The notes below the pieces were generated by a model that was not told where the DNA came from, ran no database searches, and saw only the letters and a list, made by a program, of their open reading frames with translations. Shown piece by piece: positions 4,350-56,524 of a stretch of DNA of 64,000 nt (position 1 is its first letter; each line of letters begins with the position of its first letter). The stretch comes from Octopus sinensis. Its lineage: Eukaryota. Where the stretch lies: assembly GCF_006345805.1 (NCBI RefSeq), contig NC_043022.1, forward strand, positions 9,858,001 through 9,922,000, read 5' to 3'. A program made the translations under genes and the position numbers.

Positions 4350-4606
4350 TTGCAGCGTGGAAGGTGTTTGTAAGCCATTTAAGAAACACAAAAACCGTTA
4401 GATTCACTTCAACATTTAAATTTAATTTGCCAAAATATTTTCCTCGCTTTGAGACCGCGACCTGTTCACTGACAAAAATATCGTGCTAACAGGTCGCGGT
4501 CTCAAAGCGACGAAAATATTTTGACAAATTAAATTTAAATGTTGAAGTGAATCTAACGGTTTTTGTGTGTTTCTTAAATGGCTTATAAACACCTTCAACG
4601 CTGCAA
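4350..4606. repeat. Long inverted repeat (~117 bp arms, ~21 bp spacer), Penelope-like terminus
   Basis: 4350-4466 is the near-perfect reverse complement of 4488-4606. Confidence 0.9.
4426..4476 (-). ncRNA. Type I hammerhead-like motif with G3:C8 swapped core
   Basis: RC reads TTTGTCA GTGAACA G GTCGC GGTCTCAAA GCGAG GAAA ATAT TT TGGCAAA. The mirror arm has GCGAC GAAA ATAT TT TGACAAA. Confidence 0.6.
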
Positions 4607-4798
4607 CTGTTTTCGTTCCAGCACACGATCTCAGATCAAGTCACTTGCTATGCAAGTACATCTCTGTAACTATATATATTTATTATATATATATATATAT
4701 ATATTATATATATATATATATATATATATGTATATTGGTAAAAACAGTAAGATAACAAAAGAAAGAAAGAGACCTCAATATTATGTAAATAGAGGAAA

Positions 4799-5193
4799 TC
4801 TTTATATATAAAAGTGAGGTTGTGTGTCTGTCTCCTACGATTTAGATTTCTAACTACTCCCACATTTTGCGGTGCAGTTTAACCAAAACCGGGTATCTTA
4901 TAGTCGTGATTCATATCGAGACCGTCTGGGTATTAGCGCGCGTCTACGATGAGTCTACGATTTAAAAAAAAATTTACCATCAATTTTTCCCATTTTTAAT
5001 CCATTTTTGACATATATAAGGGAAGTAACTCTCTAAAATTTATTATTAAATCTCAGAACGTAAAAAGCTACAGTAACACCCCTCCCCCTTTGTGGTTAGC
5101 CATATTGAGATGGCTATTATACTTTACATCTCTAAAAATGCTTATATAATTATTTCCCTTACAAACCCGAGCAACGCCGGGCGATACTGCTAG
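4799..5193 (+). mobile_element. Non-autonomous Helitron
   Basis: A|TC 5' end, subterminal hairpin CCCGAGCAACGCCGGG (5166-5181), CTAG|T 3' end, no TSD. Confidence 0.8.
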
Positions 5194-5637
5194 TATATAT
5201 ATATATATGCATATATATGTATATATATATGCATATATATGTGCATATATGTGTGTGTATATATATATGCATATATATGTGCATATATGTGTGTATATAT
5301 ATATATATGCATATATGTGTGTGTATATATATATATATATATATATATATATGCATATATGTGTGTGTGTATATATATATATATATATAATATATATATA
5401 TGCATATATGTGTGTGTGTATATATATATATGCATATATGTGTGTGTGTGTATATATATGTATGTATGTATGTATAGTAATGTTTTTTGGACATTATAAC
5501 ATGGCTGTTCTATAAAGAACTATGGTACTACATTCTAGCTCCAGGAAAATGTCTTTTCCGGCTGATTAGCAATGTCCAATCTGTGTCTGGTTCATTGTGA
5601 GTAAGGGAGCGAATCAATCCTCTCCAGCTTGGCAAGA

Positions 5638-5682
5638 TCAGTAGACCATAGTTTCTGGGTCTTTATCCTTCATCAGTACTGA
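5638..5682 (-). ncRNA. Type I hammerhead-like motif, GUC site
   Basis: RC reads TCAGTA CTGATGA AGGATAAAGACCCA GAAAC TATG GTC TACTGA. Stem I is 6 bp and the core is intact; stem II is weak. Confidence 0.65.
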
Positions 5683-5869
5683 ACACCTGCCTGCTAGAGA
5701 TGGCAGTCACTTGCCCCTACTCACAATATGTAAACAGAGAAGCAGCAGACAGCCGCTGATCTCATAAGGTGCAAAATAGCTAGTTCTAAGATCTCTAAAC
5801 GAGATATGAGTAGTAACAATACTAGATGGTAAGGTTTTTTTGCCATTATGTGTGTGTGTGTGAATATGT

Positions 5870-53045: not shown

Positions 53046-53079
53046 TGTGCTCTGTAGTAAGCTCTCTTGGCACCCATCT

Positions 53080-53410
53080 TACACAGCCAGATATTATCAT
53101 ATTGAATAAGAGAGACAAATACTGTCAGATCATTGATGTAGCCATACCAAATGACATGAATATTGTGAGTAAAGAGGTTGAAAAATTGACTAAGTACTCC
53201 AAATTGAAAGTGGAAATGGAATGCGAGAGGGTAATGTAAAAGTGATACCAGTGGTGATCGGAGTGTTCAATCCCATTGAAACTTCAAGACTTTTCAAGGT
53301 AACTGGAAATCCCATGCAAGATTGATGTCTTGCAAAAAGCAGCCTTATTGGGCACAGCTCACATTTTAAGGAAAGTATTCTTTTTAAGGTCCTTGTTGTA
53401 ACTTGATATA
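53080..53410 (+). mobile_element. R4/Dong-clade LINE 3' remnant (restriction-like endonuclease)
   Basis: 'QPDIIILNKRDKYCQIIDVAIPND.NIVSKEVEKLTKY', 'VKVIPVVIG', 'LQKAALLGTAHILRKV'. Confidence 0.85.
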
Positions 53411-56400
53411 TCAGAGAGCATCATTATATCTATGAACACACACACACACAGATATACCTATGTACATCCATCCATACACACACACACACACACATATATA
53501 TATATATATATATATATATATATATATATATACATATATATATACATATATATATATACATACATATATATACATATATATAATATATATATATATACAC
53601 ACACACACACATATATATATATATATACACATATATATATATATACATATATATATATATATATATACATATGTAATATTTATGAGAGGTGTAGGTGTGG
53701 ATGAGTGGTAAGAAGCTTGCTTCCCAACAACATGGTTCTGGGTTCAGTCCCACTGCATAGCACCTTGCGCAAGTGTCTTCTGCTATAGCCTCAGGCTAAT
53801 AATAATAATAATCCTTTCTACTATAGGCACAAGGTCAATCCTCAACCACAGTGACCCCCCACTCCACTGAATTTGACTTGTATTATTATTTTACTGTCTC
53901 CAAAAGGATGAAAAGCAAAGTTGATGTTGGCAAGATTTGAACTCGGAGCATAGAGAATCAGAAGATTCTACCAATCCAACACCGTATTTAATAAAAAATA
54001 TGAAAATAATGACCATAACTTTTCTTTATTATTTGATCAATGTAATGTCTATACTTACTCCCTTTTCACCTACGAGAGTCAGTGATCTCATTGCTGCTGT
54101 TGTTGGTGATGGTGATAGTGGTGGTGATGTTGATGGTTGTTGTCGTGGTGATGATAGCAGTGTATGGTATTGCTCGCTAACTTGCTGTTATGTAGAACGT
54201 GTTTGTACCTGTACAGGTGTGAACGTGGTGTAGACACGGAAACCAGGGAACAGGTAATGGTACCTTGCACACATTCAGAGAATGTGACAAATAATATAAT
54301 GACAAAAGTACTCGACATCAGTCAAGCACCAACGGACGACAAACAATGATCAACAAAGACATAGATGAAATAATGATAATGAGAAGATGGGGGAAGAGGC
54401 GGAAGATGGAGGTGACAGCAGAGCTGGAATGGATATATCAGACAGAGCATCATTATATCTATGAACACATGCACACACACAGATATACCTATGTACATTC
54501 ATACATATATATATGTGTGTGTGTGTGTATATATAATATATGTATATTATTTATATCATCATCATCATCATCGTCGTTTAACGTCCGTTCTCCATGCTAG
54601 CATAATATATATATATATATATATATATATATATATATGTATATGTATATACACATATGTAATAATTATGTTAGGCATAGGCGTGGATGTGTGGTAAGAA
54701 GCTTGCTTCCCAACGACATGGTTCTGGGTTCAGTCCCACTGCATAGCACCTTGGGCAAGTGTCTTCTACTATAGCCTCAGGCTGATCAAAGCCTTCTGAG
54801 TGGATTTAGTAGATGGAAACTGAAAGAATCCTGTCATATATATATATATATATATATATATATATATATATGTTTGTGCATGAGTTTGTCTCCCCACCGT
54901 CGCTTAACAACCGATGTTGGTGTGTTTATGTCTAAGCCTACAAAGAATAAGTCCTGGGGTCAATTTGTTTGACTAAAGGTGGTGCTCCAACATGGCCACA
55001 GTCAAATGACTGAAACAAGTAAAAGAATAATGGGTGTATATCAATTAGTGCATTAATGTGTTGACCAAAGCACTGGCAGGGTTTGGGCTACCTTGTGTCA
55101 TCCGCAGTTGGGGGGGGGGTATATTTCCGTTGGATTTACTTCAGGAATTCCGCAGTGTTGGTTGAGATAATAATAACTGAGTAACCTGAAAATGGATTTG
55201 GTATTAGTCTTTATTTTGTACGACCCTAGTTTCAATCCATCCTGCTGCTGTAGGGGTTCTCTAACTTGATGAACAAATAACACGACCACTCCAACTGAAG
55301 ATCTTTAGCAAGACAGCACTTTATGGATGGATGTACTTGATGGGACCCAAACTGCAAAATGGATGCAACACAACATGATGCATAGAGTCCCACCCATAAG
55401 GGACAATAACAGGATGGGTCAAAACAATCGTTGTACCAAACAAAGACTAATACTAAATCAATCTTCTGGTTACTTAATCAATTATTATTATTATTCAATC
55501 ATTACCATGCTGGGTGAAATGCTTAACGGTATTTCACCTGTTGGCGAGCTGGCAGAGACATTAGCAAGCCGGGCGAAATGCGTAGACGTATTTCGTATGC
55601 CGCTATGTTCTGAGTTCAAATTCTGCCGAGGTCAACTTTGCCTTTCATCTTTTCGGGGTCGATCAAATAAGTACCAGTTACGCACTAGGGTCGATGTAAT
55701 CGACTTAATCCGTTTGTCTGTCCTTGTTTGCCCCCTCAGTGTGTAGCCCCTTGTGGGCAGTAAAGAAATAGGTATTTCACCTGTCGTTATGTTCTGAGTT
55801 CAAATTTGCCTTTCATCCTTTTGGGGTTGATAAATTAAGTAACAGTGAAATACTGGGGTCGATGTAATCAGCTAGTCCCTTCCCCACAAATCTGAGGCCA
55901 TGTGCCTCCAGTAGAAAGGATTATTATTATTATTTTATATATATATATGTATGTATGTGTGTGTGTAGATATTATTCTTTTATTTGTTTCAGTCATTTGA
56001 CTGTGGCCATGCAGGAGCACCACCACGAAAGGCTTTTTAGTTGAACAAATTGACCCCCAAGACTTATTTTTTTAAGCTTAGTATTTACTCTATCGGTCTC
56101 TTTTGCCAAACTGTTATGTTACGGGAATGTAAAATCACCAACACCGGTTGTCAAGTGGTGATGGGGAAACAAACACAGACACAAAGACACACATACATAT
56201 ATGACAGGCTTCTTTCAATTTCCATCTACCAAATCTATTCACAAGGTTGTGGTTGGCCAAAAGCTATAGAAGACAATTGCCCAAGGTGGTATGCAGTGGG
56301 ACTGAACCTCTAACGATGTGACTGAGAAGCAAGCTTGTAACCACACAGCCACACCTGCACCTATATGAATACATACATACATGCAAGCATATATATATAT

Positions 56401-56435
56401 AAAATCAAAATAAGCAACAAAGATATCCATAGGTA

Positions 56436-56524
56436 ATGCAGTACAATTGTTTCATGCAACTCCATTTAATTGAACAATGCAATCATTACATCAATTTAAA
56501 ATGCAGAGCAATCCTCAGCTGCAC
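56436..56524 (-). ncRNA. Type I hammerhead motif with intact core, extended stem II, GUA site
   Basis: RC reads GTGCAG CTGAGGA TTGC...(AATTGA/TCAATT helix)...GCAT GAAAC AATT GTA CTGCAT. Confidence 0.7.

What the first reader, a model, noticed from the sequence alone, without database searches (positions are those of the whole stretch)
4350..56524. Eight different hammerhead-ribozyme motifs, each docked next to a (TA)n-type microsatellite
Seen: type I hammerhead layouts (stem I-CUGANGA-stem II-GAAA-stem III-UH-stem I') at 4426, 5638, 6649, 31357, 39172, 41817, 44053 and 56436. Their stem sequences differ from one another yet stay complementary. In every case a TA/TG-type microsatellite follows within about 5-160 nt on the 3' side. 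Known: Penelope-like element pLTRs and retrozymes carry type I hammerheads, often with short palindromic stem III. Inference: this genome hosts many distinct microsatellite-targeting, ribozyme-bearing non-autonomous elements, at roughly one per 8 kb in this window. Protein-based annotation would not see them.
Basis: partly seen in the sequence, partly recalled or inferred. Interest (0 to 1): 0.82.

Follow-up and report, generated by a model that had tools for sequence, protein, structure and literature searches.

The report
Octopus retroelement stubs carrying hammerhead motifs
Eight unrelated hammerhead-shaped RNA motifs sit just upstream of TA-type microsatellites in this octopus DNA and are likely the cut-off ends of Penelope-like jumping genes, a known kind; one abundant family has its central C-G core pair reversed to G-C and is predicted, not shown, to still cut RNA.

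Summary
Hits exceed 60 shuffles, and none of 90 decoy cores reaches the real count. All eight have a TA/TG tract 4-161 nt to the 3' side (26% background). Corrections: only 4 of 8 carry CUGANGA. One has a swapped G3-C8 pair; three have core mismatches and are likely dead copies. Rfam lists none at its gathering score. The host is an Octopus. Both motifs tested against sequencing contigs belong to repeat families, and family-majority letters repair stem II. Two insertions are two-armed inversions with a one-sided tail, the published layout of Penelope-like elements (PLEs). No tandem retrozyme arrays and no PLE ORF lie in the window. Best reading: stubs of several PLE-type families in (TA)n, a known kind; 'non-autonomous families' is unproven. 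The most unusual part is the G3-C8 family. I did not find it in print (one key paper was unavailable), but this scan noted G3-C8 families before on other pieces of this genome and in other genomes. Cleavage is untested.

The parts
4352..4670 (.). Two-armed (inverted) insertion between two (TA)n tracts; arms about 4352-4466 and 4488-4606, with a 64-nt tail 4607-4670 on one arm only
   Evidence: high-copy family
4426..4476 (-). Type I minimal hammerhead layout with swapped core GUGAACA (G3-C8), 7-bp stem I, palindromic stem III AAUAUU, cleavage triplet UUU
   Evidence: G3 and C8 kept across family contigs and majority letter at 4443 restores G10.1-C11.1
4747..4811 (-). Short 83% copy of the tail region of the 44009-44311 element, abutting (TA)n; no hammerhead left
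5638..5682 (-). Type I layout, canonical CUGAUGA core, weak 2-bp stem II, long extended stem I (duplex -30.1 kcal/mol), GUC triplet; tract 161 nt 3'
   Evidence: family not tested
6649..6705 (-). Type I layout with G5A core change (predicted inactive), 7-bp stem II base, near-palindromic stem III; inside a 420-bp piece between two TA tracts
   Evidence: family not tested
31357..31391 (-). Smallest minimal layout: canonical core, extra A, G-C closed 4-bp stem II, 4-nt stem III with a mismatch, GUU triplet
   Evidence: family not tested
39172..39295 (+). Type I layout with a 95-nt stem II domain and C3.A8 mismatch; 5'-truncated copy of a repeat family; intronic and sense to the host gene; 4 nt from (TA)n
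41817..41878 (-). Type I layout with U3.G8; hammerhead-like MFE fold; inside a 230-bp piece between two TA tracts
   Evidence: family not tested
44009..44311 (.). Two-armed insertion between (TA)n tracts, arms 80% alike, 54-nt tail 44258-44311 on one arm; the + arm carries a decayed second copy of the motif
44053..44113 (-). Type I layout, canonical CUGAAGA core, GUC triplet
56436..56524 (-). Type I layout, canonical CUGAGGA core, 58-nt stem II domain, perfect palindromic stem III, GUA triplet; 34 nt from (TA)n
   Evidence: family not tested

Best explanation
The eight motifs are type I hammerhead layouts 4-161 nt upstream of TA-type tracts, and they are likely the retained ends of several unrelated Penelope-like retroelement families whose GIY-YIG/RT enzyme likely cut (TA)n and copied only the terminal part of the RNA. 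Shown: layouts, 3'-biased TA contact, two families multi-copy, two insertions with an inverted second arm and a one-sided tail. Inferred: a PLE protein encoded elsewhere cuts (TA)n and primes reverse transcription at one of two fixed sites a short way 3' of the hammerhead, which would explain arms that differ by a 54-64-nt tail. Copying stops early, so stubs of a few hundred bases are left. Inferred: the palindromic stem III means an intact motif would cut mainly as a dimer and slowly. Most single genomic copies are likely decaying and silent; 6649, 39172 and 41817 are predicted to be impaired. The 4426 family keeps a G3-C8 pair, predicted to preserve part of the activity.
For: Layouts and controls. 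3' bias to microsatellites; all 8 tracts have TATA or ATAT within their first letters. Stem III is fully self-complementary in 3 of 8, 8/9 in 2, 6/8 and 6/9 in 2, and 2/4 in 1. 4426 family: 16,532 and 1,658 contigs laid in runs X4 and X12; loose ends behind 4664 and 4669 are TA/AT-rich; many contigs join the left arm to an inverted second arm at variable points, 4539-4636. 39172 family: 340, 406, 513 and 36 contigs; summed depth rises from 55-60 on the neighbouring exon to about 31,000 over the core in X2 and X4; other copies run on upstream for 80-220 nt. Majority letters move its stem II domain from -8.6 to -22.0 kcal/mol and make the hammerhead-like layout the MFE. Literature: single heterogeneous minimal hammerheads read as truncated PLEs, and pairs on opposite strands 100-700 bp apart (PMC4209133); inverted 5'-truncated copy, one-sided tail and (TA)n targets (PMC8557442); two RT start sites define the tail, and C3G/G8C partly restores cleavage (PMC11167929). 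Recently active Penelope-like families are reported in O. vulgaris (PMC13282606).
Against: No GIY-YIG or PLE-type RT in 238 of 238 non-repetitive ORFs of >=55 aa scanned. A frame through the 4426 motif found no protein relative. So no family is tied to a coding PLE here. Six of eight motifs were not tested at family level. Tails are 54-64 nt, longer than the published 30-40. The 4426 family often begins about 15 nt upstream of stem I, as a short dedicated element would. Within-family changes listed are mostly C>T and G>A, with no two-sided compensatory pair seen. In run X22, 8 reads continue from the long-arm end into non-TA sequence. Rfam finds nothing.
Confidence: 0.72

Rival explanations
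1. One reading: these are mostly dedicated short non-autonomous elements (SINE-like or solo-retrozyme-like) with their own fixed ends, moved in trans by PLE enzymes.
For: For the 4426 family, 203 contigs in X4 and 14 in X12 leave the stretch behind 4477 with a shared short run and then diverge. That gives a unit of about 210 nt. Its first 12 nt pair at 10 of 12 positions with the end of the short arm (read by eye and the window). No ORF is in the window. Retrozyme monomers are common in vertebrates (10.64898/2026.07.22.740005).
Against: The 39172 family extends upstream in other copies. A fixed 5' start is also expected if transcription begins in the terminal repeat of a coding PLE. No tandem array covers any of the eight.
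Confidence: 0.18
2. Two or more of the eight are chance matches in AT-rich, repeat-rich DNA.
For: 1-2 hits at score >=8 are expected by chance. 5638 has a 2-bp stem II and 31357 a poor stem III. The descriptor was tuned on these motifs.
Against: One of the weakest, 39172, proved to be a family whose majority letters fold better. All eight show the 3' TA contact. 5638 has a long extended stem I.
Confidence: 0.07
3. The two-armed elements are MITEs or fold-back DNA transposons that insert at TA, with hammerhead likeness incidental.
For: Palindromic structure between TA tracts; a 97% palindrome without any hammerhead lies at 36080-36273.
Against: The arms are unequal (one-sided tail), the inner junction varies from copy to copy, and six of the eight motifs are not palindromes.
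Confidence: 0.03

Closest known systems
[quoted passage not shown]
   Same: Type I order, short stem I, palindromic or missing stem III, many dissimilar families per genome, mostly single copies, some pairs on opposite strands
   Different: The core swap named in the parts I read is U3-A8; here one family has G3-C8. Two motifs have stem II domains of 58 and 95 nt against 7-8 bp described. Not tied to an ORF here.
EN+ Penelope-like elements: Penelope/Poseidon, Neptune, Nematis, Hydra, Naiad (Craig et al. 2021, PMC8557442, passages; PAc, PMC11167929, passages)
   Same: Inverted 5'-truncated arm, tail on one end, (TA)n targets, hammerhead in the terminal repeat
   Different: No coding region in the window; tails of 54-64 nt against 30-40; clade cannot be assigned without the protein. 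Naiads are reported to lack canonical hammerheads and to be remnants in cephalopods.
Metazoan non-LTR retrozymes (PMC7229834, passages; 10.64898/2026.07.22.740005, part 1 of 5 and passages)
   Same: Non-coding, type I hammerhead, low GC, PLE-related
   Different: No tandem units at any of the eight sites; circular RNA not tested
Natural hammerhead core variants (Perreault et al. 2011, PMC3088659, passages)
   Same: Covariation at the 3-8 core pair
   Different: The passage seen names U3-A8 as the natural form; I saw G3-C8 only as an engineered double mutant (PMC11167929)

Membership tests
Minimal type I hammerhead (PLE type) | Core CUGANGA with a paired 3-8 | tested here: inconclusive
   Canonical in 4 of 8, G3-C8 in 1, mismatched in 3. 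Family state kept for 4426; not listed for 39172.
Minimal type I hammerhead (PLE type) | GAAA box, U-H site, stems I and II in type I order | tested here: met
   8 of 8; stem II only 2 bp in 5638; set exceeds shuffles and decoys
Minimal type I hammerhead (PLE type) | Short palindromic stem III | tested here: met
   At least two thirds self-complementary in 7 of 8; 2/4 in 31357
Minimal type I hammerhead (PLE type) | Extra nucleotide after A9 and G10.1-C11.1 pair | tested here: inconclusive
   Clear in 31357 and in the 4426 family majority (71% in X4, 82% in X12); G-C with a 3' extra base in 44053; not clear in the other five
Minimal type I hammerhead (PLE type) | Multi-copy family with compensatory stem changes | tested here: inconclusive
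   Multi-copy in 2 of 2 tested; majority letters repair stems, but no two-sided compensatory pair was seen within a family
Minimal type I hammerhead (PLE type) | Self-cleavage (as dimer) | not testable with these tools
   No assay
Rfam hammerhead families | Score at or above the gathering threshold | tested here: not met
   0 hits; none in the 150 rows listed of 308
EN+ Penelope-like element | RT plus GIY-YIG ORF linked to the terminal repeat | tested here: inconclusive
   None in 238 of 238 ORFs scanned in the window; no genome held to look at other copies
EN+ Penelope-like element | Inverted 5'-truncated copy at the 5' end | tested here: met
   2 of 8 sites; many such joints in the 4426 family
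EN+ Penelope-like element | One-sided tail (30-40 bp in print) | tested here: met
   64 nt and 54 nt at the two two-armed sites; longer than published
EN+ Penelope-like element | Insertion bias to (TA)n | tested here: met
   8 of 8 on the 3' side; TA-rich loose ends in X4 and X12, a non-TA one in X22
EN+ Penelope-like element | Direct pseudo-LTRs flanking an ORF | tested here: not met
   No direct repeat of any motif region in the window; expected for stubs
Non-LTR retrozyme | Tandem units of 150-450 bp each with a hammerhead | tested here: not met
   None of 88 TRF rows covers a motif
Non-LTR retrozyme | Abundant circular RNA | not testable with these tools
   Only contigs of runs guessed to be RNA were available
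Permuted hammerheads (types II, III, SGC, CSG, GCS) | Other block orders | tested here: not met
   0 hits for each of five orders with a strict descriptor

The most novel reading that the evidence does not exclude
The 4426 family is a short (about 210-nt) non-coding, PLE-mobilised element with a fixed 5' end that pairs with its first 3' end. Its hammerhead is naturally and stably G3-C8, cuts as a slow dimer, and is missed by CUGANGA-based searches. Octopus DNA would then hold many active hammerhead families with swapped cores or 60-95-nt stem II domains, and sense-strand intronic copies would be purged or inactivated by selection.
Probability: 0.2. Interest if true: 0.62.

Novelty: new variant of a known kind. 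Interest (0 to 1): 0.36.

Why it matters
The general picture (many dissimilar minimal hammerheads from truncated Penelope-like elements, in TA tracts) is in print, so a specialist would not be surprised. What is useful: a natural high-copy G3-C8 core is a ready test of how much core variation a retroelement hammerhead tolerates, and of whether cutting matters for PLE mobility. The in vitro PAc work found cutting dispensable for insertion. Rfam at its gathering score and strict CUGANGA searches miss all or half of these motifs, so counts for cephalopod genomes are likely too low.

Tried and rejected
Strict CUGANGA scan with stem II <=40 nt: 1 of 8 found. Rfam: none. Whole genome: not held. Raw-read runs: X21 laid 0 reads and X22 35 reads with none over the core, so they say nothing on the core. 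Run X1 showed no depth on the exon, so it gives no baseline. Summed contig depth is not a copy number; I use it only to tell repeat from single copy. A 20-nt pattern scan of metagenome contigs gave 2 loci, both chance matches without the rest of the element. A 44-aa frame through the 4426 motif found no homologue among longer proteins (weak test). 27010 overlaps a microsatellite and vanishes on masking. 1903 and 44693 were not followed up. No permuted hammerheads were found. A strand bias (7 of 8 on minus, two-sided P 0.07) is not significant, and upstream exons of the host gene were not found, so antisense selection is unproven. Three look-ups of earlier findings by sequence or relatives returned nothing. 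Lunse, Weinberg and Breaker (PMC5785218) is not held; I saw only its title in a reference list, and it may describe G3-C8 or long-stem-II variants. No supplementary files were read; those of PMC4209133, PMC8557442 and PMC3088659 may list such variants.
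Full report
Setting. The window is 37% GC with 88 tandem-repeat rows, mostly TA/TG microsatellites. An exon at 38056-39071 is 99% identical to an Octopus vulgaris protein. That gene has exons at 36701-36829, 38056-39071, 39969-40097 and 41385-41576 on the + strand. No whole genome is held.

The motifs are there. On the + strand little is visible at the stated coordinates, because seven of the eight motifs are on the minus strand. 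A strict CUGANGA scan finds one. A descriptor that accepts any Watson-Crick pair at core positions 3 and 8, one core mismatch and stem II up to 120 nt returns layouts starting at exactly the eight coordinates. At score >=8 there are 12 hits against 1.7 (max 6) in 60 local shuffles; at >=10, 6 against 0.27 (max 2). None of 90 decoy cores reaches the real count at any of four thresholds. The descriptor was tuned after seeing the motifs, so these controls support the set, not each member. Rfam lists nothing at gathering score and no hammerhead among the 150 rows shown of 308. Single copies do not fold unusually well, except 41817.

The cores are not all canonical. Four read CUGANGA. 6649 has G5A; a change at that G is used to abolish cleavage (PMC10085705, passage). 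39172 has C3.A8 and 41817 has U3.G8. 4426 reads GUGAACA, a two-sided swap of the C3-G8 pair. Stem III is at least two thirds self-complementary in 7 of 8, the signature of hammerheads thought to work as dimers (PMC4209133). The eight regions share no blastn match with each other.

The microsatellite link is real and one-sided. 3' distances are 76, 161, 92, 101, 4, 43, 44 and 34 nt. All 8 of 8 lie within 170 nt, against 26% of background positions (P 2e-5) or 31% of repeat-covered positions (P 9e-5). The 5' side gives 5 of 8, and 0 of 8 within 100 nt of a pure TA tract. Each 3' tract has TATA or ATAT within its first letters, also the two that continue as ATAC or CA. That the bases between motif and tract belong to the element is shown only for 4426 and 44053; for the others it is inferred.

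Anatomy. 4352-4670 and 44009-44311 are inverted two-armed insertions between TA tracts. In each, one arm runs 64 or 54 nt further than the other. In 44009-44311 the + arm holds a decayed second motif; in 4352-4670 the + arm starts inside the core. A separate 83% copy of the 44009 tail abuts a TA tract at 4747-4811. An inverted truncated arm, a tail on one end and (TA)n targets are the published PLE layout (PMC8557442, passages). In the anole element PAc the tail is the distance between two RT start sites (PMC11167929, passages). No tandem array covers a motif. No GIY-YIG or PLE-type RT was found in 238 of 238 non-repetitive ORFs of >=55 aa; the RT hits at 28073-28863 and 49606-50634 are far from any motif.

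Family test 1, 4352-4670 (4 of 24 listed runs laid). X4 laid 16,532 contigs and X12 1,658; X21 laid 0 reads and X22 35, none over the core. In X12 all 21 variant places in the run's tally are listed, and none falls in 4463-4469, so G3 and C8 each have no variant at 5% or more. In X4 both C>G places are accounted for, so C3 is below 5%; one G>C and two C>T places are not listed and could lie in the core. 85 contigs in X4 carry GTG directly before the second arm's start. At 4443 the majority (71% in X4, 82% in X12) restores the G-C pair that closes stem II, and that one change makes stems I and II the MFE. Loose ends behind 4664 and 4669 are TA/AT-rich in X4 and X12 (agreement 0.46-0.70); in X22, 8 reads go on into non-TA sequence. 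203 contigs in X4 leave behind 4477 with a shared short run, then diverge or join an inverted arm at variable places. So many copies start about 15 nt upstream of stem I. Most other listed changes are C>T or G>A; I saw no two-sided compensatory pair within the family. Sister families below 80% identity would not have been laid.

Family test 2, 38900-39299 (4 runs, all contigs). Depth is 55-60 over the exon and about 31,000 at the core in X2 and X4; 340, 406, 513 and 36 contigs were laid. One contig each in X2 and X4 matches 38900-39184 with no difference, so the C3.A8 state of this copy is real. Other copies continue upstream of 39155 for a median of 80-220 nt, so this one is 5'-truncated. Eight majority substitutions and one common inserted base move the stem II domain from -8.6 to -22.0 kcal/mol and give the hammerhead-like layout as MFE. 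The table was cut at 40 rows (19 not shown) and does not reach position 8. Each of X1, X2 and X4 has one unlisted A>G place, which is compatible with G8 but does not show it. The other six motifs were not tested at family level.

Mechanism. Shown: layouts, 3' TA contact, two repeat families, two-armed insertions with tails, decay of single copies. Inferred: a PLE-type enzyme cuts (TA)n, primes at one of two sites 3' of the hammerhead and often stops early, leaving stubs. Inferred: intact motifs would cut slowly as dimers, and the G3-C8 family keeps part of the activity, as the engineered double mutant does (PMC11167929). I put 0.72 on PLE stubs, 0.18 on dedicated non-autonomous families, 0.07 on two or more chance hits and 0.03 on MITEs.

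Novelty. Many heterogeneous single minimal hammerheads from truncated PLEs are described (PMC4209133), so the finding as written is a known kind in a new host. A natural G3-C8 family did not appear in my searches or in the passages read, which name U3-A8 as the natural swap. Lunse et al. could not be read and no supplements were read. A search for hammerhead ribozyme plus octopus gave no paper on the topic, and the O. vulgaris repeat annotation has no 'hammerhead' or 'ribozyme' in its main text (PMC13282606). I saw the swap. Earlier notes of this scan already report G3-C8 families on other pieces of this genome and in other genomes; these are unchecked notes, and I could not confirm that they concern the same family. 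Hammerhead numbering and the names Helitron and MITE are from my own knowledge.

Noticed in passing
window 36701-41576 (+): Four exons of an uncharacterised coiled-coil-like octopus protein with a weak C-terminal Death-domain match; upstream exons were not found in the window. The only + strand motif (39172) lies sense in its intron and has a broken core.
   Followed up: partly
window 4800-5193: Piece between TA tracts that starts with TC after A and ends in a small hairpin plus CTAG before T; looks like a non-autonomous Helitron (recalled features) that cuts off the tail remnant at 4747-4811.
   Followed up: no
window 36060-36554: Element with 30-nt terminal inverted repeats next to (TA)n, holding a 194-nt 97% palindrome at 36080-36273; no hammerhead; MITE-like.
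   Followed up: partly
window 44416-44507 and 35712-35752: Small fold-back pieces; the first has a CUGAAGA on the minus strand without a matching hammerhead layout.
   Followed up: no
window 60614-60916 and 62963-63238 (-): Two ORF pieces with weak COX6A matches, likely exons of a cytochrome c oxidase subunit VIa gene.
   Followed up: no
window 28073-29116 (+), 49165-50634 (-): Broken non-LTR retrotransposon RT fragments, the first with a PHD-like stretch.
   Followed up: no
window 24727-25389, 32097-33292, 52035-52355, 34856-35083: Remnants of hAT, pogo-like (DDE_1, CENP-B_N) and mariner-like transposases and a Brinker-type DNA-binding match.
   Followed up: no
window 1903-1993 (-), 44693-44738 (-): Two more descriptor hits (scores 10 and 8.5, each with a core mismatch) not near a 3' microsatellite; may be chance.
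   Followed up: no
window 45548-45879, 46518-47195, 52444-52929, 63755-64000, 3688-3976: Tandem duplications with periods of 162, 328, 131/185, 28 and 107 nt; none holds a hammerhead layout by my descriptor.
   Followed up: partly
window 26835-26934: 100-N assembly gap.
   Followed up: no
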